This document shows positions 8,132-53,879 of a stretch of DNA of 64,000 bases, piece after piece (the stretch's first letter is position 1; the number at the start of each line of letters is the position of its first letter). The stretch is from Naegleria gruberi (Eukaryota): assembly GCA_000004985.1 (NCBI GenBank), contig GG738869.1; one strand, 5' to 3'. Both the position numbers and the translations under genes were made by a program. A model generated the notes under the pieces. It made no database searches, was not told the origin of the DNA, and saw only the letters and a program-made list of their open reading frames with translations.

Positions 8132-9535
8132 ATGTCATCACAACTTCTCTACTCGATGTATTGCATTTTGGAGGGCAACTTTCCAATGGATAAACAACAT
8201 ATTCAGGACTTCAACCAAAGAAAATCACCCGATTGGATGAATCTTTCTAAACCGTTAATTAGCAAGACCAATATTTGGCATCAGGCCTCAAGTTTTCATC
8301 AATTACAAATTAAATCAACACTCTGTGGATCAACGTGCACCGAATTAATTTCAGTGCTGGATTTTGAGGATACTTCATGTTGTTCTCTCTTTTTAATATT
8401 CGGAGGAAGATCTTCCGAAATCAGGGAAGGTACTTGCATGGTAAATGATGAAAAACAATTGTATTTGATAGAGATGGTTGATAATGAATTTTCCACATGT
8501 TTGAGCTATGTCTATGATGAAAATGTGTTGAATGAAAAACAAATTCCACAGGCACGATACGGCCATTCTAGTGTCTTTGATAAAGATAGAAAGTTAATGT
8601 ATGTCTTTGGTGGGATGGCTGGAGGGAAGTGTCATAATGATTTGGCAATTTTTGATGTAGTGACAAGTTTGTGGACAATTGTTAATTTTGCAAATGTTGG
8701 ATGCTTGATTCTTCCACAAGAAAGATATGGACATAATTGTGCCATTTACAAAAATTGGATGTTTGTTTGTGGAGGAAGGGATAGCTCAGGAAATATTTTA
8801 GGAGGAATTCAAGCTATGGATTTGGATCGTTGTTTATGGATGAATATTCAAGTGGAATCATTGAGTGGAAGAAGTTTCTTTACTATGGACGTGATTGAGA
8901 GAAGAGATGATAAAATTGAGATGATCATTGCTGGAGGAATTAGAAAAGATCTCAACGAAAAACCACTACAAAGACTTACCATCACTGTTGGGAATGAAAG
9001 ATCTATACACTGCTCAGTTAATCCAATAGAAAATCAAGAACTGACTTGGGATAAGTACGGACATTGCTCTGTATTCAAAAATCAAACCTTGCTATTGGTA
9101 GGAGGTCAGAATCAAGATCACTCTCTAGATTGTAATAGCTTGGAATTTAGTATTGAGAGTGAAACCTTCTCCTCATTCTCATACTTTCTACAGCCATCTA
9201 CACATTGCAGTTTGTCGTTCCTGAACATTTCGCAAGATCTTGATGTCAATCAGAATGATGGATTCTATTTTGCTTCATTACTTTATGACAGCACTTTGAA
9301 TTGCTATGTTGTTGGGGGAAATTCGATAGCTACTTATAGAACTACACCATCAATAGATGTTTCAGAAAACGTTATCAGTGATACGTGGGTAAAGATTGTC
9401 AGCTTTTTGAATTACGATGACTTGAAGAAATTATGTCTAGTTTCCAAACGATTCTACACAATATTTACTGCAGATGTGATTTGGAAGCCAATTCTGTTTA
9501 AATTCTTTGCAGAAAAATTGATAATACCCGTATAA
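8132..9535 (+). CDS. kelch-repeat beta-propeller protein with a C-terminal F-box-like motif
   Basis: Repeated kelch-type blades such as ARYGHSSVF...MYVFGG and ERYGHNCAIY...MFVCGG. C-terminal WVKIVSFLNYDDLKKLCLVSKRFYTIF resembles an F-box. The gene may continue into the 9607 ORF through a candidate 32-nt intron at 9530-9561. Confidence 0.55.
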   Translation: MSSQLLYSMYCILEGNFPMDKQHIQDFNQRKSPDWMNLSKPLISKTNIWHQASSFHQLQIKSTLCGSTCTELISVLDFEDTSCCSLFLIFGGRSSEIREGTCMVNDEKQLYLIEMVDNEFSTCLSYVYDENVLNEKQIPQARYGHSSVFDKDRKLMYVFGGMAGGKCHNDLAIFDVVTSLWTIVNFANVGCLILPQERYGHNCAIYKNWMFVCGGRDSSGNILGGIQAMDLDRCLWMNIQVESLSGRSFFTMDVIERRDDKIEMIIAGGIRKDLNEKPLQRLTITVGNERSIHCSVNPIENQELTWDKYGHCSVFKNQTLLLVGGQNQDHSLDCNSLEFSIESETFSSFSYFLQPSTHCSLSFLNISQDLDVNQNDGFYFASLLYDSTLNCYVVGGNSIATYRTTPSIDVSENVISDTWVKIVSFLNYDDLKKLCLVSKRFYTIFTADVIWKPILFKFFAEKLIIPV

Positions 9536-19119: not shown

Positions 19120-19437
19120 ATGGAGGAAAAAATTCCTGCGATTTTTCATCGAGAAGTAATCACAAAATTTGATTTTCTACCCAAGCTAAAGCATTCGACT
19201 ATTGCAAGACATTCAGAATTTCAAAAATTCCTATCAAATTTTCTACGCGAATACAATTCTTCAAAGAACCAAATTCCTTCAAGACGATATGGTAAATATG
19301 CAACCACTAAAGAAGTGAGTGCCATCATCAAGGAAATTCTAGAGTGGTACTGGCTAGATACGGAGGAGGAGAAGGATAGCACTGCTCTTGGATTAATTCT
19401 GGAGAGAATGGGATTTCCGAATCATGTGATTAGTTAA
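19120..19437 (+). CDS. small ORF immediately upstream of the RdRP, in the same frame. It is either a separate small gene, a uORF, or a 5' exon of the RdRP.
   Basis: ATG at 19120 after an A-run. 106 aa ending at TAA 19435-19437. The RdRP ORF continues in the same frame 9 nt later. Confidence 0.3.
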   Translation: MEEKIPAIFHREVITKFDFLPKLKHSTIARHSEFQKFLSNFLREYNSSKNQIPSRRYGKYATTKEVSAIIKEILEWYWLDTEEEKDSTALGLILERMGFPNHVIS

Positions 19438-19563
19438 GGTCTGGAAGTGTGTAATTTTATTGGTCATTTCCATTTGGATACTTGTTTGGTTTTCTTGTTA
19501 TCTTCTTATAAGTGGTTGCTGAATGAATCCTTTTTCAAGAAACAACAACACAATAGCAATTTC

Positions 19564-22500
19564 ATGGGCAAGATTAATGATGGTGAATGTGTTAATGCTT
19601 TCAATTATGTTAGAGATTTGGAACGTGCAAGAGAACAGTTTGATTCATCGTATTCGGAAAGAACAACTTCTATTGGTGATGATGAAATTCAACATGTTCT
19701 TGATGGACATATGGTCAATTGGATTTTATTACTCCAAAGAGTGTTAAAGATGAGACCAGAATTGCAGAGGCAGATAAAGGAGGATGGAGGTGCTGATTGG
19801 TTGGTTCGTGCAGTGTCTTTAAAAACACATCACCCAGTAATTCATAATATGGCAAGTGCTAAGAAGTTTCTCCAATTAATGAAGAAATTTACAACTTTAC
19901 AAGGTCAACCGTATGCAGAAATGAATTTTGATGAAAAATTTGAAATGCTCAAGGTTGTGACAAGAACATTTCTTGTTACAATGAATGGTTTAGAGCAAGT
20001 CCACAAATGGTTTTTGGATGGTAATCAGGATTTATCTGTGAATCAACTAGAGAATGATAGAGATCACTTTCGTATAAGAATAGTTGAAATTTGCATTAGA
20101 AATTCAACAAGCTTACAAGGACTTGCAGGAGACTTATACTCAGACAATAGTGATCCAAGAGCAATTGTCAAACTCAGAAGTTCACCGAAAGGAAAATACT
20201 CAAAGAGTCGTTATAGATTATATTTTGGTGTTAACACAACCTTGACTGTATTATTTTCCTTTCCAAGAATGGGATTGACATCTCAATTATTTCTTTCAGA
20301 AAATTCAGATTTGGAAAGTTTAAAGGATTTGAAAACTGTTGCAGGAAATTATTGGGGAGAAGAAACAGTTCTCAAGATTAAGCAAGATTTTTGTAATAGC
20401 ATCAATAATGGTAAAAAGCCAACAGTTTCAAAGCAAGATTTTTCAAAATGCAAACATTTGGAAAGAATTTCACAAGAATTTAGAGCTGCTCGAGTTTTGA
20501 AAAGTTATCAAGATTCTCCAATTACAATTGCCGGTTATTCATTTCATCAATTATGTCAAAATACCAGTGGAATGCATTCGTATAAGTATACTTATTATTG
20601 TGGAGATTTGGCTGATGAATTGCCATTGGGAGTGGAAGATGTGAAGGAGTTTTTTATTCCTAGTCATCTCAATCCAGATTTGTACAAACCAGAAAATCAA
20701 TTGAAATTAACAGTTCGTTTATCGCTCTTAAATACTCCAATATCTCCTACGATTAATATTTCAGAATATCAAGTTATTGAAGATGTTGGTCTTTTCACAG
20801 ATGGTTGTGGTTTCATTTCTCCTGATTTAGCAAGAGAAATTTATAGAAAAATTAAACAGGCAGAATCTAGAGAGAAAGTTCACGTATTTGAGAATGCACA
20901 ATACATGGTTGATGTACAGATGATTTATCAAGATTCTGATCCAGTTGAGGATGATATGGATGATAATGTTCCTTCAGCATTTCAGATTCGTTTTAGAGGA
21001 GCAAAAGGCATGCTCCTACAAAATCCAAATGTGAAAGGAATTGTATTAAGAGAATCTATGGTTAAATTCAACGTAGATTTAGATGAAGATCTCGATGAGG
21101 AAGACGAAAGTCTTTCGAATATCCATGTAGTCGGTTATTCAGAACCATCTAATTTTGCATTCGCCAACTCAACAATTTTGTACATGATGAGTGGATGTGT
21201 TGATGGAGGTGAGAAATTTGAGGGAATAATTATGAATATGTGGAAGGATTATGTTAATGACATTTTAAAAACCTATTCTAATGAAGATACTTCCCAATTG
21301 ATGAAGAAATATTTCAAAGAAGGCGATTTTCATGCCTTAAACATTTTCGGATTGACCAAAGATGTTGCACTCGCTTTCCTTGCAGGACCATTCAGAACTC
21401 AATTGTTGAATCTTAAACTCCCTATTCAAAATGCTCGGAGAGTTTACGGAGTTTGTGATCCACTCGAAGTGTTAGAACCAGATGAAGTTTTTGTTAGAAT
21501 TAGAATGGAAGATGGCACTTTGAAAACCTTGGAAGGAACTATTGCCATCACTAAAGAGCCATGTCTTCATAGAGGTGATTTACGTTTGCTGAAAGCTAAG
21601 AAAATAGAGAGTTTAGAATATCTTTCAGAAGTAATTGTTTTTCCTATTAAGGGAGAAAAAAGACCTATTCCTAACATGATTACAGGAAGTGATTTGGATG
21701 GTGACAAATATCTTGTCATTTGGGATGAACCTCTTGTTTCATCTTTCGTCCAACAATTCGAACCTGGAAACTTTGATGAAGAAATTGAAGGAGAAAAACG
21801 TAATTTCGAACCAGATGTTTTTAAGGACTGGATAGGATTGAGACATTCCTATGTAGATTCGTATGGATATGAATGGAGTAAAGGTGAGAATTGGAAAACC
21901 ATGCAAAGACTTTCAGATATTGTAAATATGGCTGTCGATGCACCTAAAAAGGGGAAAACATTCAAGGCAGGTGCAATGGAGAAGGATATTGTTAGAAACT
22001 TTCCGAAATATCCTCATTTCCATAATTCAAAGACAAAGGAAGCTGTTAGAGTGAGTACTTCAGTTGTTGGGAAAATGTATGATTTTGCAATTGATAGAGT
22101 TACTGAGCGTTTTAAATTTCAGCCAGTTACTGACAAGCGTCAAACATCAACTGACGACAAGGAATATTTATTCTTGGATAATTTATACCAAGTATTGCGA
22201 AGGAATAAGGATATTTCAGTCAATCAGTTTTTGAACTTTATTTGGAAACATTTTTCAAACATTTTATTGAGAAGCACTACAATTCAATTTGCTTCTGAGT
22301 TTTTAGATTCGTTTTGGAGATTCTTATGTATGTTGACAATACGAAAAGAGAAAACTATTATATTGTGTTGTCTTAACACAACTGTTGATAAGGTTAATAA
22401 CAGTTCTATGAATGCAATTATTAGCGAAATGACAAAGAGCGATAATTTAGTACTAATGGTTCAAGGAATATCCGAAACTAAACTCAAATTCAAAGAAGAT

Positions 22501-24555
22501 TTGCAAAATGACAAGATACATGACTCCTCTGCATGTTCTTTATTCAAATTTTCCAACTCGAATGTTGAATTTATTCATTTCCTTTTTTATGAAATATTCT
22601 TTGATGCAGCTTCAAGAATCCAAATTGATCTAGGGTACAATTTGCTTACCAATTATACCCTATCTCAAACCCTATTTGAAAATATTGTAGAACCATCGAC
22701 TTTGAATCCAGTTCTCTTTAAAAAACCAAAAACTATCTTTGAAATAATTTACAAAGCTTGCAATGGCAAAGACTCAGATAGAAAGAAGCATGCATTGTAC
22801 ATTGTTGGACTTTTATTCAAGAATGGTATAATTTTACCTAGAAACTATGATTTGGCTATCAAATGCTTTAAACTGGCACTTTCAAAAGAGAACAATATCC
22901 GAATTGGATTTATACCATATTTGTATAATAGTGAAAAACGACCTGTAATGAAAGAATTGAAGATTCTGGCAAAGGCAGGATATGCTGAAGCACAATACAA
23001 CTTGGGAAGATTAAGCTATTTTGATGGCGATCAATGGTCTGCTTTGGAATGGTTGAAAAAAGCTGCTTTTCAATGTGTTCTTAATATTGAAAACAGAGGA
23101 TTGGATAAGAAGAACACTCTTTACTTTTTATCAAATCTCTACAGGGATGGTACTATTGTTGAGTGGAATAATGATAGATATCTTCAATTATTGGAAGAAT
23201 CTGCTAAATTAGGATCTATTGATGCAATGTACAAGATTGGAAGAAGGATGGAGTTGACCAAACAGTATTCATTTGCTTGTTTTTGGTATGAGAGAGCAGC
23301 CTATGAGGGAATATTAGAAAATTATTTGCAAGGTTATGGAATGAAAAACTCTTGTCGATTCAGCTTGGAAATTGATGAATATGGAATTGATTCAATGAAT
23401 AGATTGCCACCTCTTCCATTGCAAAATGATCTACAAGTTGAAATTCAACTTGATATTTCAATAGAAAGTCCTCTCTTGAAGAAAAATATGCTATTTGTGC
23501 AGAGTTCAAATCCAGTTTTCCAAACTTTTTGTAATGATGGAACAATTATTCCACCAAACGAAATTGAAGAATTTACCAAGATTCTCCCAAGTTCTAATAT
23601 ATTACAAAAGAAATATGAAAGGAAATATGAAAGCATCCATGACTCAGCAAAGAGAACTATGGAAAAAGCAGAAAAAATGCTGAAATTGGCTAACCAAACT
23701 ATTGCTCATATAGATAGAATTTTAAACAAGGGAAAGAGTTCAGATTCGAAAGAATCTCCTCTTGAAAATGAGAGTAAAGAAGAAGTAGAAGAAATATCTA
23801 CTGAACAAATATCAACTGAACAAGAAGATACAAAAGAATCTATTATTCCACACACAAAATGGAAACTGATTTATAGAGGAAGTAAGGATGGATACGAATC
23901 TAATGATTTCCATAGAAAGTGTGATGATAAAGGTTCCACTTTCATCATAGTCAAGACTAAAGAGGACGAAATATTTGGAGGATATACAACCCAAACTTGG
24001 AAAATTCCCCAAGCAAATATCTTTGGACACACACAACGAAACGATGAAAATGCATTCTTATTCATTCGTTCCAAGAGTCGCAAATATTTTAAACTTCCAA
24101 TCACAAATCAACCAAGTATTGATTGTACTCACGCAAGATTAATTGACTTTCTTGATTTTACCATACCAAATAATTGTGATATAATTCCAGGACATACTAA
24201 TTTCGGAATGAATTATCAACTTCCAAAATGGTCTAAGGGAAATGGATTCAGTTTTAGTGAATCTCTTGATAATAGAAGAAGTTTTTATGTGGAAGAAATT
24301 GAAGTTTATTCATTAATAGATTCTGAAGATGAAAATAGTCCACTCATGTCTGGATCAATCAATCTTTCTCAGATAAGAACAGATGGTCCTATGTTTAATT
24401 GGGATGATTATTTGAGCTACGTTAGAGCACGAAATAGTGATCCTTATGGTACAAGAGCATACACAGAAAGTGTAAGACAAGCAAGAATTTCAAGTGATGA
24501 AGGAATTGAAAGATTGAAAGACAAGTTGCGTCTAATGGGAGTTTTCAAGGAATAG
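19564..24555 (+). CDS. cellular RNA-dependent RNA polymerase (RDR/QDE-1/EGO-1 family) fused to C-terminal Sel1-like repeats and a TLDc domain
   Basis: Uninterrupted 1702-codon ORF (19447-24555); the first ATG is at 19564. The catalytic core has AFQIRFRGAKGMLLQNP and the cellular-RdRP signature GSDLDGDKYLVIWDE (DLDGD, about 21690). Residues around 22900-23300 carry Sel1-type repeats (AEAQYNLGRLSYF..., AMYKIGRRMEL...). The C-terminus (about 23850-24300) has WKLIYRGSKDGYESNDFHRKCDDKGSTFIIVKTKEDEIFGGYTTQTWK, typical of TLDc. Confidence 0.8.
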   Translation: MGKINDGECVNAFNYVRDLERAREQFDSSYSERTTSIGDDEIQHVLDGHMVNWILLLQRVLKMRPELQRQIKEDGGADWLVRAVSLKTHHPVIHNMASAKKFLQLMKKFTTLQGQPYAEMNFDEKFEMLKVVTRTFLVTMNGLEQVHKWFLDGNQDLSVNQLENDRDHFRIRIVEICIRNSTSLQGLAGDLYSDNSDPRAIVKLRSSPKGKYSKSRYRLYFGVNTTLTVLFSFPRMGLTSQLFLSENSDLESLKDLKTVAGNYWGEETVLKIKQDFCNSINNGKKPTVSKQDFSKCKHLERISQEFRAARVLKSYQDSPITIAGYSFHQLCQNTSGMHSYKYTYYCGDLADELPLGVEDVKEFFIPSHLNPDLYKPENQLKLTVRLSLLNTPISPTINISEYQVIEDVGLFTDGCGFISPDLAREIYRKIKQAESREKVHVFENAQYMVDVQMIYQDSDPVEDDMDDNVPSAFQIRFRGAKGMLLQNPNVKGIVLRESMVKFNVDLDEDLDEEDESLSNIHVVGYSEPSNFAFANSTILYMMSGCVDGGEKFEGIIMNMWKDYVNDILKTYSNEDTSQLMKKYFKEGDFHALNIFGLTKDVALAFLAGPFRTQLLNLKLPIQNARRVYGVCDPLEVLEPDEVFVRIRMEDGTLKTLEGTIAITKEPCLHRGDLRLLKAKKIESLEYLSEVIVFPIKGEKRPIPNMITGSDLDGDKYLVIWDEPLVSSFVQQFEPGNFDEEIEGEKRNFEPDVFKDWIGLRHSYVDSYGYEWSKGENWKTMQRLSDIVNMAVDAPKKGKTFKAGAMEKDIVRNFPKYPHFHNSKTKEAVRVSTSVVGKMYDFAIDRVTERFKFQPVTDKRQTSTDDKEYLFLDNLYQVLRRNKDISVNQFLNFIWKHFSNILLRSTTIQFASEFLDSFWRFLCMLTIRKEKTIILCCLNTTVDKVNNSSMNAIISEMTKSDNLVLMVQGISETKLKFKEDLQNDKIHDSSACSLFKFSNSNVEFIHFLFYEIFFDAASRIQIDLGYNLLTNYTLSQTLFENIVEPSTLNPVLFKKPKTIFEIIYKACNGKDSDRKKHALYIVGLLFKNGIILPRNYDLAIKCFKLALSKENNIRIGFIPYLYNSEKRPVMKELKILAKAGYAEAQYNLGRLSYFDGDQWSALEWLKKAAFQCVLNIENRGLDKKNTLYFLSNLYRDGTIVEWNNDRYLQLLEESAKLGSIDAMYKIGRRMELTKQYSFACFWYERAAYEGILENYLQGYGMKNSCRFSLEIDEYGIDSMNRLPPLPLQNDLQVEIQLDISIESPLLKKNMLFVQSSNPVFQTFCNDGTIIPPNEIEEFTKILPSSNILQKKYERKYESIHDSAKRTMEKAEKMLKLANQTIAHIDRILNKGKSSDSKESPLENESKEEVEEISTEQISTEQEDTKESIIPHTKWKLIYRGSKDGYESNDFHRKCDDKGSTFIIVKTKEDEIFGGYTTQTWKIPQANIFGHTQRNDENAFLFIRSKSRKYFKLPITNQPSIDCTHARLIDFLDFTIPNNCDIIPGHTNFGMNYQLPKWSKGNGFSFSESLDNRRSFYVEEIEVYSLIDSEDENSPLMSGSINLSQIRTDGPMFNWDDYLSYVRARNSDPYGTRAYTESVRQARISSDEGIERLKDKLRLMGVFKE

Positions 24556-35161: not shown

Positions 35162-36592
35162 ATGATCACTTCCCTACCCCATGAAATCCTTGCCAATGAA
35201 ATCTTTATTTTTCTTCCAGAATTATTTCTTTTCAAAGTTTGTTCTATATGCAAACTGTGGAGACATTTAATTATTGAAAAATTAACACAACACGGATTGA
35301 CCATTTTAAAGTACAAACAAATGGAAAATCAGTGGTCCGAAGATCAATTTAATATTTCCCTTCCGATTCATCACCTATTGATCATCAAATCACAATTTAA
35401 ATCTGCTTGTTTGGATGTGTTTTTTAAAAATGATATTTTGAGTTTTTTAACGAGATTCGAATTGATTGGAGTTCCAATAGGAAACAAACCTTTAAAGATG
35501 ATTTCAAATTGTAAATATTTGGGTCAATTGGAAAAATTGGTCATGTTGGCATGTGGGATTGGAGATGCTGGTGTGCAGTCTCTTGTTAATTCAAGTAAGA
35601 ATTTGAAATCATTGAAATATTTGGACCTTTCATGTAATGTAATTACTGACAATGGTTTGAAAATGATCTTAAATTCAGATTTTAATTTGGAAGAATTCTA
35701 CTTGACAACCAATAAGATTAAATATACAAGTATTAATGAAAGGCCAATGGAAAGTTTGAAAATTCTCCAATTGGAAGAATATTACACAGTGGAAACAGTT
35801 CATGATATGCATATGGAAATATTTTATCAAACTGGAAGGGTGCCAACAAATGTAAACACTCCCCAAGCTCAATCTCTGCATGATGTTGCACTAATGTTGC
35901 AACAACCACAGATTTTACAAGTTACTACAAGAGTTTCGTTAGAAATGCTTTTGGAGAGTGCCAAGCAAGGTTCAACACAAGCTCAGTACAGAATGGGAGG
36001 AATATATTTCGTAAAATGTGAACCAGATTATGGATTTTCTCAAAACATTGATCTAGCCATTGACTTTTTAAGGAAAGCAGCTGAAAAGAAACATCCTGAA
36101 GCGACTGCTTTGCTGTCTGTTCTTTATGAAGAAATTGGAAATTTGGAAAAGTCGTTTGAATGGTGTAAGAAAGCTTCTGAACTTGGCGATTCATCATCTA
36201 TGATAAGATTAGGATATATGTACGATAAGGGAAACGAATTTATTAAGGTAGACCACGTACTAGCATTGGAAATGTACGAAAAGGCATTGAAAATTGAAAC
36301 CTCTTCTCAAAACTATTATCTTCTTGGAAGTTTGTTTCATGAGGGAAGATGTGACAAATTTGGTAAAGTAATTATTGGACAAGATTATCAAAAAGCAATG
36401 GAATATTATCATGAATGTTTGAAACTTGAAGAAGATAACGAATGGGCAAATTATCATTTGGGTATAATGTATAAACTAGGGGAAGGTATTGATCAACCAA
36501 ATAACGAATTGGCTAAAAAGTATTTGTCGCGAGCAGCCGAGTTAGGGGATGACACAATATCAGAACAAGAATCGAATCAGAATTTGGAGTGA
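35162..36592 (+). CDS. F-box / leucine-rich-repeat / Sel1-repeat protein
   Basis: The N-terminus MITSLPHEILANEIFIFLPELFLFKVCSICKLWRHL is an F-box. LRR-like segments (LKSLKYLDLSCNVITDNGL) follow. C-terminal Sel1/TPR-like repeats (AQYRMGGIYF..., MIRLGYMYDKGN...). Confidence 0.6.
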   Translation: MITSLPHEILANEIFIFLPELFLFKVCSICKLWRHLIIEKLTQHGLTILKYKQMENQWSEDQFNISLPIHHLLIIKSQFKSACLDVFFKNDILSFLTRFELIGVPIGNKPLKMISNCKYLGQLEKLVMLACGIGDAGVQSLVNSSKNLKSLKYLDLSCNVITDNGLKMILNSDFNLEEFYLTTNKIKYTSINERPMESLKILQLEEYYTVETVHDMHMEIFYQTGRVPTNVNTPQAQSLHDVALMLQQPQILQVTTRVSLEMLLESAKQGSTQAQYRMGGIYFVKCEPDYGFSQNIDLAIDFLRKAAEKKHPEATALLSVLYEEIGNLEKSFEWCKKASELGDSSSMIRLGYMYDKGNEFIKVDHVLALEMYEKALKIETSSQNYYLLGSLFHEGRCDKFGKVIIGQDYQKAMEYYHECLKLEEDNEWANYHLGIMYKLGEGIDQPNNELAKKYLSRAAELGDDTISEQESNQNLE

Positions 36593-39691: not shown

Positions 39692-42571
39692 TTAGAGCAT
39701 ATCACTTTCAATATTGTTTTGTGCCGTTTCAACTTCGTCTTCAGTTAAATCTATTGAACCTTCAGTTAATTGGAATTTCTCAATATTTACAATGAGCTTT
39801 TTGATGCTTGCAGGAACAAATTTGTTTCCAAAAGCTTTGATACATAAATCCTCTGGGATTTCATTTCTTTCTCGTGGTTTAATTATGGATGGAATATCAT
39901 CAAGCAACTTGTCAAATATAACAGTCTTGTGAGCTTGAAGTTCCTTAACAGCTACATCCACCGATTCTCGGCAAACCAATCTGAAAATTTTGACTTGTTC
40001 CTTTTGATTTTTTCTGACTAATCTGCAAATTGCTTGGTCATCTTTGGCAAAGTTAAAGTCCAAATTGAATAATACAACATTGGTGGCCGTTGTAAGGTCA
40101 ATACCAACACCTCCCGCATTCTTACTAATAAGCAAAGTGTTGATAATTCCCCTATTGAATTGATTGATAATCTCTGCTCTCTTGGGAGATGATGTATCTC
40201 CTGTAAATACACCAATCTTGATTGTATTGTCTTTGCTCAACTCCTTAACAATGACAGAGTTGTAGCAAACTAACCCAGAAAATACGACAACCTTTTCCTT
40301 TTTACCTCCAACTATCCTAGAAACTAAGTTTTTCAAAATTTTCACTCTTGTAGAGCCGGTTAATTTGGGATGGCTTTCTTGAATATATTTCTTGAGGGTT
40401 GTTTGAAAACTCTCAGGTGTTACATCTTCATCGTTATATTCTTGTGAAAATTCTTCCAAATCTTTCTCATCTGATTCTTTCAAATAATCGACACAGTCGA
40501 GGCATAATCTCTGATAAAAGTATCTGGCAAAGTAACACTTAGTTCTGTATTTTTGAGAAATGAACTCGTAAATATCCTTCTCCTCTTTGCTCATTTTAAA
40601 TTCTATGATAATATCCTCTTTCTTTTTTGCAATCTCTTCCATTTCCTTGATATTAACTTTTCTATGAATCAATTCCTTAAAGTAATTGTAAAAGACTTCA
40701 GTTCTAGCAAGAACCTCTCTGTTTTCAATGTTTTTTCTATTTTTAGAGAAGAATTCTGTAAATGTGGAATTAAAACAACGCATCAACTTCCTCACATATG
40801 GGTTCTGAGGTTCTAAAAATCTTATCAACGTGAATATTTCAGCTATACTATTCTGTAATGGCGTACCAGTAACTAGTAATTTGATAGATTTGGAAAAGGA
40901 TGAGAAATGCTTGAATCTTTCAGATTCTGGATTTTTGATAACATGAGCTTCATCAATTACTAAAATATCAGCTTTCTTTAGATACAATGCCTCCTCAGGA
41001 CTATTTTTCAAAATATTCATACACCTGTCATAGGTCATTACCATCATTCTTCCTCCCTTATCGAATTCCAACATTTTGTCGTACATATTTTCATTGTCAT
41101 TCAATACTATAATTTCAGATAAAAATCCTCCAGAAGGAAAATGGTACATGTACTGTTTTGAAAAGTGATCAATATTTGATTTTGGAACAAGAACTAGATA
41201 TTTGAGTGATTTACCAATTTTGTTCTGAGAATATATTCTGTTGTAATTCTTCAATATCAATAGGACCGTAAGTGTTTTACCTAAACCCATAGAATGAGCT
41301 GTAACACGTTAGAATATTGTGTTAATTTCACACTTACCAATCAATAAGGATTTTCCTTGCATCATTCTATTAATGGCCGTTCTTAAACAATCAATTTGGT
41401 GATCCATGACGTAGTCCTGATACTCTAATTCATACTCTCCATGTTGCTTCTTGATAAAGGTGACTGATTCCTTAACCTCCTCGACAATATGTTGATTTTG
41501 AAGTGCCTCCTCTGCCAATTGTTCCTTAAGTTTTAATTTTTGTGCCTCCTGTTGCATCTTTTTGAAACCTTGTTCGTATTGTTGGCGTCTGAAGTGATAG
41601 GCAAGTTTTGTTTTGAACGCTACAACAACTGGAATCTCCCTTCTTGCATACATTCTCAAATATTCTCTGAACTTATTATTATTTTTTTCCATAATGCATT
41701 TTTCAATTTCATCAGCCAATGCTTGTTGCTTTTCATTGAGGATTACTGTTTTGATTATTCTTTCAGTTGGCTCTTCGTCACTCGTTATAACTTCCTCAAC
41801 ACCCTCATCATCAATGAAATCATTCATATCATTCTCTTCATCGACTGTTGGTGCTGATTTTCTCTTTCTGTTTGGTCTCGTATTCTTGTTCAAAGTAGCG
41901 TCCACTCTTTTCTTCTTTTTAACCACTTGCTTGTCAAATTCCTGTAAAGCCAATTGATGAATAATACTATCTCTAAGAGTGGTGTCTAATCCTTTGAAAT
42001 TCCCATTCAATGTATCTTTCAGTTTTAGTAATCTCTCCTCCAACCTTTGCCAATTATCATGAATATCTTCCTTGGTTTTGTCTTGACAAAACTCACGAAT
42101 TTCCTCATCAGTACATTGAAATCTTTTTACATAGTTTTCAATATACATCTGACACTCATCCACTACCTCATCATCATCATTCAATTCTTCTACAGAATAT
42201 TCAATAGCCTTGTCTTCAAAAAGTAATTCTGGGCCATCATCAGAGTCTTCCGAATCAACTTCCGAATCAAAATCATTCAAGTCAATAGAAGACTCATCCT
42301 CTTCATCATTCATATCTATTATATCACCTACATCATAGCTGGCTTCTTCCGATACATCAAATTCTGATGGGGAAATTGGAGGCCGATACATTGGGGCCTC
42401 ATTGTGTTGTTCCATTTTTTTAGAATTTGTTATTTTAGCAATTGAACTGGCTTTCCAAATATAATTGTTAAGAAACTGGTTTGTGTTTTCAATGTTTTGA
42501 TCAAAATTATGAGAATTAGAACAAATTTTCTTGTAAGTGTTGGGAATTCTCAAAGATAAAGTAGTCGGCAT
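39692..42571 (-). CDS. SNF2-family DNA-dependent ATPase/helicase with an acidic N-terminal region. Exon 1 is 41338-42571, exon 2 is 39692-41298, and the intron 41299-41337 is 39 nt.
   Basis: Walker A ...LLIAHSMGLGKTLT spans the intron (GTAAGTGTG...TTACAG). Motif II DEAH (ILVIDEAHVIKNP). Helicase-C block LLISKNAGGVGIDLTTATNVVLFNLDFNFAKDDQAICRLVR. The N-terminal 400 aa are D/E-rich. Confidence 0.8.
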
Positions 42572-48302: not shown

Positions 48303-49703
48303 ATGCACAAAATCAAAGGGCTAACATCTGCGTTGGGTGCAGTTTTGGTTTTATCCATCATCGCCTTCTTGAGTGTTCATGTTGATGCTTGTGGTCATCA
48401 TCGTCAACAACATCATAATGGATATCATCACCATCATCACCATCATCATGAAGAAAATCCAAAATCATCCGATAAGCCTGTATCTGCCCCACCAAAATCT
48501 GTTTGGGATAATTTGGAAAATATAATTACCAAGTCCATTGCTTCTCAAGCCTTCCCAGGAGCTGTCCTTTTGGTTGCTTCTAAAAATTCAGGAATAATTT
48601 ATTCTAATAGTTTTGGACATTTTACCTACAATCAACAATCATCACCAATGACCATCGGAAGTAAATTTGATATGGCATCCTGTACAAAGGTTTTGGCAAC
48701 AACATCTGCTACTGCATTGCTTTATCAAAAAGGATTGATTGGATTGAAGGATAGAGTTATTAAATATTATCCTGCATTTGCTGTTAATGGGAAGAGTGAA
48801 ATTATGATTGAAAATCTCTTATTGCACAATGCTGGTTTGCCACCAGATCCAAATCCTGGTTATTCTGCAACTCAATTTGGTTGTCCTGCTACTTCTGACT
48901 ATCATCCTCCTCAAGTTTTCACTTGTGCATCAAAGATTTTCAATTCTTGGTTGAATCAAGTTTTGGAAAATAAGCCAGGTCAAGTTTATGTCTACAGTGA
49001 TTTATCAATGATTTCAATGATGTACATTATTGGTAATGTTGTCAAGAAGAATATGGCCATGTTGGAAATGCATGAAGGAGATTTGAGAGTTGAATGTGTT
49101 CAACAAGTTGGTGGAATAGATGCTCCAGGTCATGAAACTTGCTATTATGAAGCTTTTGTTAATAAGCATGTTTTACAAAATCTCCAAATGACAAAGAGTG
49201 GATTCATTCCAAAACCAGAAGAAAAATCCAACATTCCACCAACCTGGTTGGATACTACCTATAGACACGAACTCATTCAAGGTTATGTCTCTGACGAAAA
49301 TGGTTATGCTTTGGGTGGTATTGCTGGTCATGCTGGGTTATTCACTCCAGTTGTTGACGTCTATCGTTTGATGAATGAACTCATGTTCAGAGCTAGAGGA
49401 AACTTTATCAATGAAACCACTTTCGACATGTTTACAACAGTTAAGAATACCACTCAAAGTTCAAGAGCTTTGGGATGGGATACTAATTCTCAAGGAAATG
49501 GAACATGTGGTAGTTTATCAAAGAAGACATTCTTGCATTTAGGATTCACTGGTACCCAAGTTTGTGGTGATCCAGATAGAAATTTATTCACCGTCTTTTT
49601 AACCAACAGAGTTTATCCAGATAAGGATAACAACAAGATGGCTCCAGTAAGAAATGCTGTCAACTCTGAAATTCAACGAGTATTCGATCAATATTATCAT
49701 TAA
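48303..49703 (+). CDS. secreted beta-lactamase-related serine hydrolase (class C / LACTB-like) with an N-terminal poly-His tract
   Basis: Signal peptide, H-rich tract (HHHHHHHHH), active-site SCTK (S-x-x-K) at about 48675. The fold-wide similarity is to AmpC-type esterases and penicillin-binding-related hydrolases. 466 aa, single exon. Confidence 0.75.
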   Translation: MHKIKGLTSALGAVLVLSIIAFLSVHVDACGHHRQQHHNGYHHHHHHHHEENPKSSDKPVSAPPKSVWDNLENIITKSIASQAFPGAVLLVASKNSGIIYSNSFGHFTYNQQSSPMTIGSKFDMASCTKVLATTSATALLYQKGLIGLKDRVIKYYPAFAVNGKSEIMIENLLLHNAGLPPDPNPGYSATQFGCPATSDYHPPQVFTCASKIFNSWLNQVLENKPGQVYVYSDLSMISMMYIIGNVVKKNMAMLEMHEGDLRVECVQQVGGIDAPGHETCYYEAFVNKHVLQNLQMTKSGFIPKPEEKSNIPPTWLDTTYRHELIQGYVSDENGYALGGIAGHAGLFTPVVDVYRLMNELMFRARGNFINETTFDMFTTVKNTTQSSRALGWDTNSQGNGTCGSLSKKTFLHLGFTGTQVCGDPDRNLFTVFLTNRVYPDKDNNKMAPVRNAVNSEIQRVFDQYYH

Positions 49704-50781: not shown

Positions 50782-53700
50782 ATGGCCAGAACTGTAGACA
50801 ATATGATCATGTTGGAGGATGTCTCTGAACGAGGCATTCTCACCAACTTGAAGAATATGTATAAGAAGGATAATATTTATGTAGGTTTCTTTAGTTTACT
50901 TTCGAATACAAACATAAAAGACATTTATTGGAGAAGTTTTAATATCTGTCAATCCGTTCAAACATTTGAACATTTATAACGAACAAAAACTTCGTCAATA
51001 TAGATCACACTGTATGTTTATTCTTCATTTCGAATAGTAGTATTCTAATCATCATCACACTAAATAGATCCTTTCGAATTACCTCCTCACGTTTATTCTA
51101 TTGCAGAAAGTGCTTACAGAAATTTGATTTCGGAAAGAGTTTCTCAATCCATTATCATTTCAGGAGAATCAGGTGCAGGTAAGCAAAAAAATCTTTTCTT
51201 TTCATAACTTTGAAATTTTCATAACTTGGGAAAAATAAATTCATAGGTAAAACTGAAGCTGCAAAACAAATCATGAATTATATTGCTGCCGTGAGTGGTG
51301 GAGAAAAAGAAGGAGAAAATAGGGTCAAGGCACAAATCTTGAAAAGTAATCCATTGTTAGAAGCTTTTGGTAATGCCAAGACAGTTAGGTAAGTTTTTAA
51401 GGATTTTACTGTAAATTCTAATGGTTTATATGTAATTTGTTGTGTGTACTGATGGTTTGAATTGATTTTATTACTGTATATATATAGAAATAACAATAGT
51501 TCTAGATTTGGTAAATATATGGAAATTTTCTTTTCAGATTTGAATCAAATTATGGGAGGTCAAATTATGCAATTCTTATTGGAAAAGTCTAGAATTGTTT
51601 CTCAATCACAAGGTGAACGTAATTTTCACATTTTCTATCAAATTTTCACAGATGATGCTTTGGCTAAAAAGTTAAACTTGACAAAACCTCAAGATTACAA
51701 ATATTTGAACAATACTTATACTGTTGATACAGTTGATGATAAACAAGGTTTCCGTGAGACAAAAGAAGCTCTCGATTTCATTGGAGTTAAAGAAGAAACT
51801 CAATTCCAAATTTGGGAAATGGTTGCTGGTATTTTACATTTGGGAAATATTGAATTCCAAGGTGTTGAAAAGAATGCAAAGGGTGGAAGAAAGGATGGAT
51901 CTGAAATTATTGATAAGAATCCATTGAGATTGTGTGCTAAATGCCTCCATGTTGATGAACAAATGTTGGAAACTTCACTCACCACTAAAACTGTCGAAGC
52001 TGGTGGTAGAAATTCTGTCTATGCTTCACCATTGAGTGTTGATGGAGCTATCAATGCAAGAGATGCATTGGCAAAGGGTCTCTATAGAAGATTGTTTGAT
52101 TGGATTGTAAAATCAGTTAACGAATCAATTACCTTACCGTCATTGATTAATAGAAGATTGTCAACTATGAATGGCAAACCAGGAAAGAAGGGAGAAAAGC
52201 TTAATACCAAACCAAATGAATTTGTAACTATTGGTATTCTAGATATTTATGGTTTTGAAATTTTTGAAACCAACTCACTCGAACAATTAACAATTAACTA
52301 CATTAACGAAAGATTACAGCAAATGTTTATTGAACTAACTTTGAAAGAAGAACAAGAAGAGTACATTAGAGAAGGTATCAAATGGGAAAAGATCCCATAC
52401 AGTGATAACAAACCTTGTGTTGAACTCTTTGATTCCAAACTTGGTATTTTCAATTTATTGAACGAGACAAGTTTATTGAGTAAGGGTGATGATGATTTCT
52501 TGAGAAAACTCAAGGAAAACAATGGAAAACATCCATTCATGGTTCCATTCGATAAGGTCATTTCAAAGGAACAAGAAAAGAACTTTAAGGTTAAACATTA
52601 TGCTGGTATTGTAGAGTATCACTCTCCAACATTTGTTGAAAAGAATTTGGATACCTTGTATCAAAATTTGGTCGCTCTTGCCTTGTCTTCAAGATCTGAT
52701 TTGATGGTTCAATTGTTTTCATCTGATAAGATTGCAACTGGTGGTAATAATGTTGCTGCTAAACCTCCAATGATTTGTACTCAATTCAAGAAGCAAGTTG
52801 ACCACTTGATGACCAAGCTCTACAATTGTAAACCACATTACATTAGATGTATCAAGCCAAACGATAGAAAGATTGGTAACTTGTTCGAAGATGAAATGGT
52901 TACTCACCAAATCAGATGTTTGGGTCTCTTGGAAAACGTATTGGTCAAGAGAGCTGGTTTCGTCTATAGACACAAGTTTGACTTCTTCCTTCATCACTAC
53001 AAGGTCACTACAAAGGAAACTTATCCATTCCTTGCCGACAGTTTCAGAGGTAATGAAATTGAGGCCTGTAAACATATTGCCCAAAATGTATTGAAATCTG
53101 GAGCTGATCACTCTAAAATGTTCCAAATTGGTAAAACCAAGATCTTTATCAAGAATCCGGAGACTGTATTCGCATTGGAAGAATTGAGAGATCGATGCTC
53201 CATTGATTGTGCCATTCAAATTCAAAGAAAATTCAGAAAATTCATTGCCAAGAAGAGAGCTGAAGAAAACAAACGTGAAATCAATAACATCTTTAACAAT
53301 CAAAAGAAGAGACGTCGTATCAGTTACAATAGAATTTATCAAGGTGATTATTTGAACTTTGCATTCAATTCTGAAATGGCCAAACTCTTAGCCAAACACA
53401 ATGACTCTATGATTCACTACTCTGGAAGAATTCAAAAGATTAACAATAGAAACAAGATTCAAGACAGAACCTTGGTCATTACTGAAAGTAACATTTACAA
53501 TATCGATTGGAATGATAAGAAGAATAAGATGAAACTCAAGAGAATATTGCCACTCTCAGATCTCATCAGTCTCAAAGTTTCTCCATTCACTGATGGTTAC
53601 TTTGTTCTATTCTTTGGTACAAGATATTGTTATTTCTTTAATTCTGATGATACTTCTGAAATTGTTTCAATTCTCATTAGAATTTTCAAACAAAAACAGA

Positions 53701-53879
53701 AAAAGATCCCAGTTGAAGTAGCTCAACAATTCGATTACAAACCAACTCTCAAAGAAACTAGAACTCTCAAATTCATTGAAGTTAGCGCCATTCCAAAAAA
53801 TGGTCCAATTGACAAGACTGGTAAATCAGAAATTACAGTTTCTATCATTCCAGCTGCTGAGGAAAAATACTACAAATAA
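50782..53879 (+). CDS. short-tailed class I myosin heavy chain. Exons 50782-50880, 50921-51011, 51068-51178, 51247-51388 and 51488-53879.
   Basis: Spliced product: ...NMYKKDNIY|[30 protein letters not shown]|[38 protein letters not shown]|KTEAAKQIM...[12 protein letters not shown]|[15 protein letters not shown].... The P-loop, switch regions, IQ motif ([15 protein letters not shown]) and a TH1 tail are present, with no SH3. Introns are 40, 56, 68 and 99 nt, all GT..AG. TAA stop. Confidence 0.9.

What the first reader, a model, noticed from the sequence alone, without database searches (positions are those of the whole stretch)
19120..24555. Cellular RNA-dependent RNA polymerase fused to Sel1 repeats and a C-terminal TLDc domain
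The long ORF has the hallmark cellular RdRP motifs QIRFRGAKGML and DLDGD. I do not know this architecture from any described RdRP family: after the polymerase come Sel1-type repeats (about 22900-23300) and a clear TLDc domain (about 23850-24300; WKLIYRGSKDGYESNDFHRKCDDKGSTFIIV...IFGGYTTQTWK). TLDc domains occur in OXR1/NCOA7-type proteins and are linked to V-ATPase binding and oxidative-stress protection. A second Sel1-repeat protein with an F-box lies 10 kb away (35162-36592). Together they could be a lineage-specific RNA-silencing or antiviral module whose adaptor domains localise or regulate the polymerase.
Basis: partly seen in the sequence, partly recalled or inferred. Interest (0 to 1): 0.8.

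Follow-up and report, generated by a model that had tools for sequence, protein, structure and literature searches.

The report
Naegleria RNA polymerase with TLDc tail
This is a real, conserved gene of the amoeba Naegleria gruberi in which an RNA-silencing-type RNA-dependent RNA polymerase carries a tail of Sel1 repeats and a TLDc domain, a combination I found in no other polymerase sampled; its function is untested.

Summary
The window is Naegleria gruberi, and the ORF 19447-24555 (+) is 100% identical to a public 'predicted protein'. It scores Pfam RdRP 3.9e-72, Sel1 5.8e-9 and TLD 3.7e-15. The motifs QIRFRGAKGML and DLDGD sit at 20983-21015 and 21691-21705.

A 65%-identical ortholog from a metagenome has the same domain order in one uninterrupted ORF. 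Non-synonymous change is well below synonymous change in every segment, linkers included. A confident AlphaFold model of the C-terminus matches only solved TLDc domains.

TLD was found only in this protein and its ortholog among 90 RdRPs, and no RdRP appeared among the 150 best Sel1/TLDc matches. C-terminal repeat tails (Sel1, LRR, TPR+MYND) are common in Naegleria and Willaertia RdRPs. The TLDc is the unusual addition.

The tail most likely acts as an adaptor. The V-ATPase is the only documented TLDc partner, but that link is inferred here.

The proposed link to the Sel1 gene 10 kb away is unsupported. The 5' end is unresolved: an in-frame TAA at 19436-19438 lies inside conserved codons that the public model removes as an intron.

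Verdict: new variant of a known kind, moderate interest.

The parts
19120..19314 (+). First exon of the public gene model (65 codons from the ATG at 19120).
   Evidence: P0001 begins MEEKIP...YATTKE and then jumps to WLLNE. The sequence is shown.
19315..19512 (+). Annotated 198-nt in-frame 'intron' (GTGAGT...AG). It reads as conserved coding sequence (SAIIKEILEWY, LGLILERMGF, HLDTCLVFLL) and contains the in-frame TAA at 19436-19438.
   Evidence: The ortholog P0002 reads straight through the equivalent codons. Amino-acid identity is 54%, with pN 0.29 against pS 0.62. All 23 in-frame GT..AG pairs that bypass the stop also delete conserved codons.
19447..24555 (+). Uninterrupted 1702-codon ORF that holds all the domains. 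The first ATG is at 19564 and the stop codon is at 24553-24555.
   Evidence: It is 100% identical to the N. gruberi predicted protein P0001.
20473..22083 (+). RdRP catalytic domain (PF05183). Motifs: FTDGCGF 20794-20814, QIRFRGAKGML 20983-21015, catalytic DLDGD 21691-21705.
   Evidence: Pfam 3.9e-72. These motifs are invariant across 11 diverse RdRPs. The nearest solved structure is Arabidopsis RDR2 at 2.4e-18. pN 0.13 against pS 0.70.
22090..22719 (+). Conserved region after the polymerase, shared with the Naegleria RdRP paralogs.
   Evidence: phmmer matches P0002, P0003, P0004 and P0005 only. Identity to the ortholog is 65%, with pN 0.23 against pS 0.75.
22783..23310 (+). About four Sel1-like helical repeats.
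   Evidence: Pfam Sel1 36.6 bits against a cut-off of 30.7. A profile of the region matches the solved Sel1 proteins 6ok3 at 1.4e-30, EsiB at 9e-22 and SEL1L at 7.5e-11. The low-confidence AF2 model shows paired helices.
23311..23823 (+). Variable linker. It includes an N. gruberi-specific insertion of about 83 residues (about 23602-23850): a predicted long helix followed by an acidic Ser/Glu-rich stretch. The ortholog lacks the insertion.
   Evidence: Alignment. A long helix is predicted at low confidence. The aligned part of the linker has pN 0.35 against pS 0.69.
23824..24315 (+). TLDc domain.
   Evidence: Pfam TLD 3.7e-15, and 2e-20 in the ortholog. The AF2 core has pLDDT above 90. The 16 best Foldseek PDB hits are all TLDc domains and the next hit has E=0.14. 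The profile's best PDB sequence match is mEAK7 at 1.8e-8.
24316..24552 (+). C-terminal tail: a disordered stretch, then helices at about 24400-24435 and 24448-24534. The extreme C-terminus GIERLKDKLRLMGVFKE (24502-24552) is conserved.
   Evidence: AF2 helices at residues 191-202 and 207-235, with pLDDT 71-86 at the end. The last 17 residues align with GMERLFNQLHSLGLFKD in P0002. The tail as a whole is weakly constrained: pN 0.50 against pS 0.63.

Best explanation
The locus encodes one large protein of Naegleria gruberi, about 1660-1810 residues depending on the unresolved 5' end. It is a catalytically intact eukaryotic (cellular) RNA-dependent RNA polymerase. Its C-terminus carries about four Sel1-like repeats, a variable linker, a TLDc domain and a terminal helix.

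Shown:
- The domains are real.
- They lie in one reading frame.
- That frame is kept under purifying selection in two organisms.
- This is one of three N. gruberi RdRP paralogs with Sel1 tails, and only this one has a TLDc.

Inferred:
- The polymerase makes complementary RNA for small-RNA amplification, as its homologs do.
- The Sel1-TLDc-helix tail has no catalytic role. It acts as an adaptor that sets where, or with which partner, the polymerase works.
- The leading candidate partner is the V1 sector of the V-ATPase on acidic compartments (phagosome, lysosome, contractile vacuole). This is the only molecular function demonstrated for TLDc domains. The layout TLDc - linker - C-terminal helix also mirrors mEAK7.

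My probabilities: architecture and single gene about 0.95; adaptor role of the tail about 0.6; V-ATPase as the partner about 0.25.
For: Domains: Pfam RdRP, Sel1 and TLD are all above cut-off in N. gruberi and in the ortholog. The RdRP motifs that are invariant across diverse RdRPs are kept, including DLDGD.

Single gene:
- 1702 codons run without a stop, where chance gives about 1e-63. For the 170-codon Sel1-TLDc linker alone chance gives about 5e-7.
- The ortholog P0002 is one 1811-codon ORF that aligns end to end.
- pN is below pS in every segment.

TLDc fold: the AF2 model has pLDDT 80 overall and above 90 in the core. The top 16 PDB fold matches are exclusively TLDc domains.

Family pattern: the N. 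gruberi paralogs P0004 and P0162 are RdRP+Sel1. P0005 is followed by a strong LRR ORF. The Willaertia RdRPs carry TPR+zf-MYND. C-terminal repeat modules are therefore interchangeable in this clade, which fits an adaptor role.

V-ATPase lead:
- All tested mammalian and yeast TLDc proteins bind the V-ATPase (PMC8608904; PMC12139955).
- mEAK7 uses its TLDc plus a C-terminal helix after a linker (PMC9263379).
- mEAK7 is the best PDB sequence match of this TLDc subfamily.
- The Gly of S-x-x-G, the Gly of IFGG and the Glu of EIEVY are kept. These correspond to NCOA7 G815, G845 and E938 by my own alignment, taken from the alignment to zebrafish Oxr2 and the Oxr2/NCOA7 residue equivalences in PMC8608904.
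Against: - There are no expression, localisation or interaction data for this protein.
- Its nearest TLDc relatives are tandem-TLDc, BTB-TLDc and EGF/teneurin-type (probably extracellular) proteins. No partner is known for that subfamily, and V-ATPase binding is implausible for extracellular members.
- The conserved bend 'GPxF' of the subfamily is LIDF in N. gruberi and IINF in the ortholog. In NCOA7, mutating G896 in the glycine-rich bend abolishes V-ATPase binding. I did not establish that the two bends are equivalent.
- The Ser equivalent to NCOA7 S817 is Glu in N. gruberi and Lys in the ortholog.
- Isolated TLDc domains of TBC1D24 and TLDC1 did not pull down the V-ATPase.
- The C-terminal tail is only weakly constrained.
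- The orthologous architecture was found in only two organisms. It did not turn up in the N. lovaniensis or N. fowleri proteins that the search could reach.
Confidence: 0.6

Rival explanations
1. The tail is an adaptor or regulator that has nothing to do with the V-ATPase. In this reading the TLDc is a generic protein-binding, oligomerising or stress/redox-responsive module that gates or targets the polymerase, for example to an RNA granule, a substrate complex or an Argonaute/Dicer partner.
For: The closest TLDc relatives belong to a subfamily with no known V-ATPase link, and some carry extracellular-type EGF domains. The subfamily's GPxF bend and the NCOA7 S817-equivalent residue are not kept. 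Sister RdRPs use Sel1, LRR or TPR+MYND tails, which are generic interaction modules. TLDc proteins were first described as oxidative-stress protectors (PMC5614904, listed).
Against: No other molecular function of a TLDc domain has been demonstrated. Every solved TLDc complex among the fold-search hits is with the V-ATPase.
Confidence: 0.3
2. The gene is decaying or non-functional in the sequenced N. gruberi strain, because an in-frame TAA interrupts conserved N-terminal codons.
For: The TAA at 19436-19438 lies inside sequence that is coding in the ortholog. Every in-frame splice that removes it also deletes conserved codons.
Against: There is only one stop. The following 1702 codons are open and show strong purifying selection. 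All recognised domains lie downstream, and an ATG at 19564 could start a protein that keeps all of them. The stop could also be a sequencing error, one allele of several, or lie in a real in-frame intron as annotated.
Confidence: 0.05
3. The fusion is an artefact. The RdRP and the Sel1-TLDc part would be two adjacent genes or separate transcripts that merely share a frame.
For: No transcript evidence was available here. The public model is a computational prediction.
Against: The frame is continuous in two organisms at 65% identity. The junction regions are conserved at the protein level (65% after the RdRP, 47% in the linker) and have pN below pS. An open frame of this length is negligible by chance. 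The two other paralogs also join RdRP to Sel1.
Confidence: 0.04
4. The RdRP works together with the F-box/LRR/Sel1 gene at 35162-36592 as a genomically linked silencing or antiviral module.
For: Both proteins contain Sel1 repeats.
Against: This is a eukaryotic genome with several unrelated genes in between, including a TauE-family transporter gene and ORFs without Pfam matches. The F-box is below Pfam thresholds. There is no synteny upstream in the ortholog's contig, and that contig ends 152 bases after the gene, so the downstream side could not be checked. Sel1 repeats occur in all three N. gruberi RdRP paralogs.
Confidence: 0.03

Closest known systems
Eukaryotic cellular RdRPs of RNA silencing (plant RDR1/2/6, nematode EGO-1/RRF-1, fungal QDE-1/SAD-1; Pfam PF05183)
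   Same: It has the same catalytic domain and the same invariant motifs, including DxDGD. The nearest solved structure is Arabidopsis RDR2 at 2.4e-18, and QDE-1 is more distant at 4e-7.
   Different: The accessory domains seen on the RdRPs sampled are RRM, helicases or family-specific head/tail domains. None of the 90 sampled RdRPs other than this protein and its ortholog has a TLD hit.
The other Naegleria / Willaertia RdRPs (P0004, P0162, P0005, P0205)
   Same: They belong to the same RdRP clade in a rough neighbour-joining tree. They share the post-polymerase region and a C-terminal repeat module. In the two other N. gruberi paralogs that module is Sel1.
   Different: None of them has a TLDc. 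Their tails end in Sel1, LRR or TPR+zf-MYND.
mEAK7 (TLDC1)
   Same: It is the best PDB sequence match of this TLDc subfamily profile, at 1.8e-8. It has the same layout: TLDc domain, extended linker, C-terminal alpha helix. In mEAK7 these grip the V-ATPase stator and rotor (PMC9263379).
   Different: mEAK7 has an N-terminal myristoylation site and an EF-hand-like domain and no enzyme domain. Identity in the fold matches is only about 14%. The resemblance of the C-terminal helix is positional, not shown by sequence.
OXR1 / NCOA7 / Oxr1p TLDc proteins
   Same: The fold is the same, with TM-score about 0.62-0.71 normalised to the target. The Gly and Glu positions equivalent to NCOA7 G815, G845 and E938 (my alignment) are kept.
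   Different: Direct sequence similarity is not significant (E 0.06-0.3). The subfamily's GPxF bend and the S817-equivalent are not conserved. The closest relatives by exhaustive search are tandem-TLDc and BTB-TLDc proteins.
Enzymes with C-terminal Sel1-like repeat adaptors, for example eEF2 kinase and SEL1L/Hrd3
   Same: The Sel1-like repeats sit next to another functional unit. The region's profile matches SEL1L at 7.5e-11 and eEF2K weakly at 0.11. From my own knowledge, the eEF2K repeats recruit partners.
   Different: The enzyme class is unrelated. This is an analogy of design only.

Membership tests
Eukaryotic cellular RdRP (PF05183) | Profile match above the curated threshold | tested here: met
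   244 bits against a cut-off of 23.8, E=3.9e-72, covering profile positions 51-580 of 582.
Eukaryotic cellular RdRP (PF05183) | Catalytic DxDGD motif and the other invariant motifs (TDGCG, QIRxxGxKG) | tested here: met
   DLDGD is at 21691-21705. D105/D111/G112/G114, Q172/R174/K179/G180 and D408/D410/G411/D412 are invariant across 11 diverse RdRPs, this one included.
Eukaryotic cellular RdRP (PF05183) | RNA-templated RNA synthesis | not testable with these tools
   This needs a biochemical assay.
Sel1-like repeat (SLR) proteins (PF08238) | Profile match above the curated threshold | tested here: met
   36.6 bits against a cut-off of 30.7, but only one repeat is significant on its own. The ortholog scores 35 bits with two repeats.
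Sel1-like repeat (SLR) proteins (PF08238) | Several tandem repeats similar to solved SLR proteins | tested here: met
   A profile of the region matches 6ok3 at 1.4e-30, 4bwr at 9e-22, HcpC 1ouv at 2.8e-14 and SEL1L at 7.5e-11, over profile positions 26-206. The profile includes the tail of the paralog P0004, which may contribute to the score.
Sel1-like repeat (SLR) proteins (PF08238) | Alpha/alpha repeat solenoid structure | tested here: inconclusive
   The AF2 model from the two-sequence alignment shows paired helices but has a mean pLDDT of 38.
TLDc domain (PF07534) | Profile match above the curated threshold | tested here: met
   56.7 bits against a cut-off of 24.5, E=3.7e-15. The ortholog scores 73.9 bits, E=2e-20.
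TLDc domain (PF07534) | TLDc fold | tested here: met
   The AF2 core has pLDDT above 90. Foldseek ranks 1-16 are all TLDc structures with E from 6e-8 to 4e-5, and the next hit has E=0.14.
TLDc domain (PF07534) | Binding to the V-ATPase, the only demonstrated TLDc function | not testable with these tools
   This needs a pull-down, co-localisation or a multimer model. Of the NCOA7 residues tested by mutagenesis (PMC8608904), my alignment finds the G815-, G845- and E938-equivalents kept and the S817-equivalent not kept. The subfamily's GPxF bend is also not kept, and its equivalence to the G896 bend was not established.
OXR1/NCOA7 subfamily of TLDc proteins | Closest sequence relatives are OXR1/NCOA7-type proteins | tested here: not met
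   The best relatives among 1.84 billion representatives are tandem-TLDc, BTB_2-TLDc and EGF-TLDc proteins. Direct phmmer matches to Oxr2 and NCOA7 have E of 0.06-0.3.
mEAK7 (TLDC1)-like proteins | N-terminal myristoylation site and EF-hand-like domain, then TLDc, linker and C-terminal helix | tested here: not met
   The TLDc - linker - helix part is present. The N-terminal part is replaced by an RdRP plus Sel1 repeats. This is a resemblance of layout, not membership.

The most novel reading that the evidence does not exclude
[quoted passage not shown] RNA amplification for silencing would then take place on phagosomal, lysosomal or contractile-vacuole membranes. In a bacterivorous amoeba these are the compartments through which foreign or viral RNA enters. 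V-ATPase state (assembly, ATP turnover) might also gate the polymerase. More broadly, heterolobosean RdRPs may form a family with interchangeable C-terminal targeting modules (Sel1, LRR, TPR+MYND, Sel1+TLDc).
Probability: 0.15. Interest if true: 0.8.

Novelty: new variant of a known kind. Interest (0 to 1): 0.45.

Why it matters
Cellular RdRPs amplify silencing signals, but how they are directed to particular places or substrates is poorly understood outside plants, fungi and nematodes. Here an RdRP is fused to a domain whose only demonstrated partner is the V-ATPase. Its paralogs carry other swappable repeat tails.

This gives a concrete and testable handle on RdRP targeting in a deep-branching eukaryote. 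It also gives the TLDc field a case in which the domain is attached to an enzyme of nucleic-acid metabolism. If the V-ATPase link were real, it would connect small-RNA amplification to the endolysosomal system.

If the link is not real, the result is still a clean example of lineage-specific domain shuffling in the RNAi machinery, and a correction to the public gene model.

Tried and rejected
1. UBA-like N-terminal domain. The conserved LGLILERMGF...HLDxCLxFLL segment looked UBA-like to me. Neither Pfam nor a profile search of PDB sequences supports this, so I dropped it.
2. AlphaFold of the whole 612-residue Sel1-TLDc tail from a two-sequence alignment gave pLDDT 38. It was unusable for fold search. 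Only its secondary structure is mentioned, and as low confidence.
3. A word-index homolog search with the TLDc region alone found nothing, not even the protein itself. I replaced it with the exhaustive HMMER search.
4. Two scans of JGI metagenome contigs, one with the Sel1-TLDc profile and one with the Naegleria RdRP profile, found no further orthologs.
5. A cluster look-up of the ten best TLDc relatives gave no organism names, so the origin of the TLDc could not be placed taxonomically.
6. Synteny between the ortholog's contig and the window: none upstream. The contig ends just after the gene.
7. A counterpart of the ortholog's extra 75 N-terminal residues (weak RING-like CPICH...CQQC, E=0.18) was not found upstream in the window. 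It may be an ORF-caller extension.
8. A short intron that removes only the TAA: none exists. All in-frame GT..AG options remove at least 29 conserved codons.
9. Other copies of the RdRP, Sel1-tail or TLDc sequence in the window: none.
Full report
**What is there.** The window has about 34% G+C and comes from Naegleria gruberi. The translated ORF 19447-24555 (+) is 100% identical to a public 'predicted protein [Naegleria gruberi]' of 1745 aa, P0001.

The ORF runs for 1702 codons without a stop. Its own base composition gives a probability of about 1e-63 for this. The other two forward frames contain 95 and 193 stops.

Pfam finds three families above their curated cut-offs:
- RdRP PF05183: E=3.9e-72, window 20473-22083.
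- Sel1 PF08238: E=5.8e-9, one repeat significant on its own, at 22789-22884.
- TLD PF07534: E=3.7e-15, window 23824-24315.

**Is it one gene?** A search of 5.8 billion proteins returned an ortholog, P0002 (1811 aa). It is 65% identical over 1477 aligned positions and has the same three Pfam families. It is encoded as a single uninterrupted ORF on a 12.1-kb contig of ENA assembly ERZ27315067.

The two proteins align end to end: N-terminal region, polymerase, post-polymerase region, Sel1 repeats, linker, TLDc and the extreme C-terminus. I computed codon-level divergence per segment. Synonymous sites are saturated (pS 0.62-0.75). Non-synonymous change is much lower everywhere:

| Segment | pN |
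|---|---|
| RdRP core | 0.13 |
| Post-RdRP region | 0.23 |
| Sel1 region | 0.25 |
| Linker | 0.35 |
| TLDc | 0.32 |
| C-terminal tail (about 75 residues) | 0.50 |

Only the C-terminal tail is weakly constrained (pN 0.50 against pS 0.63). The junctions between domains are therefore coding and under selection in both lineages. A chance fusion of two genes is very unlikely, although no transcript data could be consulted.

**The domains.**

*RdRP.* The residues that are invariant across 11 diverse RdRPs are all present, including TDGCG, QIRxxGxKG and DLDGD. The nearest solved structure by sequence is Arabidopsis RDR2 (2.4e-18). QDE-1 is more distant (4e-7).

*Sel1.* Pfam detects only one repeat by itself. 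A profile of 22717-23340 together with the ortholog and the tail of the paralog P0004 matches solved Sel1-repeat proteins strongly: 6ok3 at 1.4e-30, EsiB 4bwr at 9e-22, HcpC at 2.8e-14 and SEL1L at 7.5e-11, across profile positions 26-206. By eye there are about four repeats between 22783 and 23310.

*TLDc.* Direct phmmer against PDB sequences is weak, although every top hit is a TLDc protein. A 35-sequence alignment gave an AlphaFold model with mean pLDDT 80 and above 90 in the domain core. Foldseek against the PDB then returned, as ranks 1-16, only TLDc domains: Skywalker/TBC1D24, NCOA7, Oxr2, mEAK7, Oxr1 and Rtc5p, with E from 6e-8 to 4e-5. The next hit has E=0.14.

*Tail.* After the TLDc the model shows a disordered stretch and then two helices (24400-24435 and 24448-24534). 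The last 17 residues are conserved with the ortholog.

**How unusual is the architecture?** I ran an exhaustive HMMER search with the Sel1+TLDc profile against 1.84 billion representative proteins. It gave 15,089 hits at E<=0.001, but only P0001 (whose cluster should also cover P0002, given their identity) matches the whole profile.

Among the best 150 hits, local phmmer found no other protein with an RdRP domain and no other protein with both a Sel1 and a TLDc match.

Conversely, a profile search with diverse RdRPs listed 90 RdRPs with precomputed Pfam content. PF07534 occurs only in P0001 and P0002.

Both samples are incomplete (top 150 of 15,089, and 90 RdRPs reached through a word index). 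The claim is therefore 'not seen elsewhere', not 'absent'. Three literature searches found no paper that mentions this protein or architecture.

The protein and its Pfam hits are already in public databases. What is new is the recognition and analysis, not the sequence.

**Family context.** N. gruberi has at least three RdRPs:
- P0001: RdRP-Sel1-TLDc.
- P0004: RdRP-Sel1, 1235 aa.
- P0162: RdRP-Sel1, 1384 aa, Sel1 4.8e-36.

The metagenomic organism also has three RdRP genes, all from assembly ERZ27315067:
- P0002: the ortholog described above.
- P0213: an RdRP+Sel1 fragment.
- P0005: its ORF is followed, with a 4-nt overlap, by an ORF with strong LRR matches (LRR_6 2.1e-23). This is probably an RdRP-LRR fusion split by a frameshift or an intron.

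Willaertia magna and a related protein have RdRP+TPR+zf-MYND. A rough neighbour-joining tree puts all the Naegleria proteins in one clade, with P0001/P0002 as one sub-branch.

C-terminal repeat modules are thus a theme of heterolobosean RdRPs and appear to be interchangeable. The TLDc is the addition specific to this paralog. No ortholog turned up among the N. lovaniensis or N. fowleri proteins that the search could reach.

**What kind of TLDc is it?** Its closest relatives are proteins with two to eight tandem TLDc domains, BTB_2 (KCTD-type)-TLDc proteins, and one protein that combines TLDc domains with teneurin-type EGF and laminin-G domains. These share the pattern YRGSRDGF..FH.KCD..G.T...IFGGYT..W...AFIFSL...EIEVY.

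The best PDB sequence match of the subfamily profile is mEAK7 (1.8e-8).

Mutagenesis of NCOA7 identified residues that affect V-ATPase binding (PMC8608904). I mapped them onto this protein using the alignment to zebrafish Oxr2 and the Oxr2/NCOA7 equivalences given in that paper:
- The G815-, G845- and E938-equivalents are kept.
- The S817-equivalent is Glu in N. gruberi and Lys in the ortholog.
- The subfamily's conserved bend, GPxF, is LIDF in N. gruberi and IINF in the ortholog. NCOA7 G896 lies in a glycine-rich bend, but I did not establish that the two bends are equivalent.

**Mechanism.**

*Shown:* an intact polymerase core, and a conserved, selected C-terminal tail made of a helical-repeat scaffold, a variable linker, a TLDc domain and a terminal helix.

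*Inferred from homology:* the polymerase makes complementary RNA for small-RNA pathways. N. gruberi has Dicer homologs (PMC4791657).

*Inferred from design and family pattern:* the tail is an adaptor that targets or regulates the enzyme.

The only demonstrated molecular function of TLDc domains is binding the V-ATPase:
- All five mouse TLDc proteins tested co-purify with it (PMC8608904).
- Yeast Oxr1p and Rtc5p and human mEAK7 have been solved on it.
- mEAK7 grips the stator with its TLDc and the rotor with a C-terminal helix that follows an extended linker (PMC9263379). The Naegleria tail has the same layout.

I therefore rank 'tethering to V-ATPase-bearing acidic compartments' as the leading specific hypothesis, but only at about 0.25. 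The subfamily is distant, some relatives look extracellular, two of the binding-relevant positions are changed, and isolated TLDc domains of TBC1D24 and TLDC1 did not bind in pull-downs.

The main rival is a V-ATPase-independent adaptor or regulatory role.

**The 5' end.** The frame from there hits a TAA at 19436-19438.

The public model avoids the stop by splicing out 19315-19512 (198 nt, in frame, GTGAGT...AG). That 'intron' aligns codon for codon with coding sequence of the ortholog: SAIIKEILEWY/SAIIKDILEYY, LGLILERMGF in both, and HLDTCLVFLL/HLDCCLIFLL. It shows pN 0.29 against pS 0.62.

Every in-frame GT..AG pair that bypasses the stop also removes conserved codons. Four readings remain possible:
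- The TAA is a sequencing error.
- It is one allele of several.
- The segment is optionally spliced.
- The N-terminal part has been lost in this strain and translation starts at the ATG at 19564.

None of these affects the RdRP-Sel1-TLDc architecture.

**The neighbour.** The ORF 35162-36592 has Sel1 (1.7e-25, four repeats) and LRR_6 (5e-7). Three F-box models hit its N-terminus, but all below their cut-offs (E 0.003-0.1). It is plausibly an F-box/LRR/Sel1 protein.

Nothing links it to the RdRP:
- The surrounding genes are unrelated: a TauE-family transporter, a Kelch/F-box protein, a beta-helix protein, an SNF2 helicase, a myosin I, a beta-lactamase-fold protein and several ORFs without Pfam matches.
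- The ortholog's upstream 6.5 kb shares nothing with the window.

**Verdict.** This is a real, conserved and apparently rare domain architecture: a cellular RdRP with a Sel1-TLDc tail. It lies within a protist RdRP family that has diversified its C-terminal adaptor modules. It is a new variant of a known kind. Interest is moderate, because the function of the tail is entirely inferential.

Noticed in passing
window 19315-19512 (TAA at 19436-19438): The public N. gruberi gene model removes this 198-nt in-frame segment as an intron. In the ortholog it is conserved coding sequence, and in N. gruberi it contains one in-frame stop. The model, the sequence or the strain's allele needs checking.
   Followed up: yes
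window about 23602-23850: An N. gruberi-specific insertion of about 83 residues lies just upstream of the TLDc: a predicted long helix followed by an acidic Ser/Glu-rich stretch with a small ISTEQ duplication. The ortholog lacks it. Glu-rich motifs upstream of the TLDc were reported to show a non-significant trend towards enhancing V-ATPase binding in NCOA7 and TLDC2 (PMC8608904).
   Followed up: partly
L002 2839-6941: In the metagenomic Naegleria-like organism, the RdRP paralog P0005 is followed, with a 4-nt overlap, by an ORF with strong LRR matches (LRR_6 2.1e-23). This is probably an RdRP-LRR fusion split by a frameshift or an intron. It adds a third kind of repeat tail to this RdRP family.
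   Followed up: partly
P0205 (Willaertia magna) and P0201: These heterolobosean RdRPs of about 1870-1900 aa carry TPR repeats and zf-MYND fingers C-terminal to the polymerase. This is another unusual RdRP architecture.
   Followed up: partly
window 35162-36592 (+): A protein with four Sel1 repeats (1.7e-25) and LRR_6 (5e-7). Weak, sub-threshold F-box hits fall at residues 2-65. It is probably an F-box/LRR/Sel1 substrate adaptor, with no evident link to the RdRP.
   Followed up: partly
window 8132-9535 (+): A Kelch beta-propeller protein with a C-terminal F-box (F-box-like 2.8e-5, F-box 1.2e-4). The order is unusual, because F-boxes are normally N-terminal.
   Followed up: no
window 39692-42571 (-): An SNF2-family helicase (SNF2-rel_dom 2.6e-29, Helicase_C 7.5e-16) lies in ORF 39692-41290. 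The adjacent ORF 41309-42571 on the same strand has no Pfam hit and may be its N-terminal part, separated by an intron.
   Followed up: no
window 51462-53879 (+), 48303-49703 (+), 57674-61114 (-): A class-I myosin (Myosin_head 8e-164, TH1 tail 4e-38), a beta-lactamase-fold protein (4e-35), and a 1146-aa ORF with no Pfam match.
   Followed up: no
P0002 residues 1-75 (L001 6514-6738): The ortholog's called ORF extends 75 residues further upstream and includes a weak RING-like CPICH...CQQC pattern (zf-RING_UBOX, E=0.18). No counterpart exists upstream in the window. It may be an ORF-caller extension or a lineage-specific exon.
   Followed up: partly
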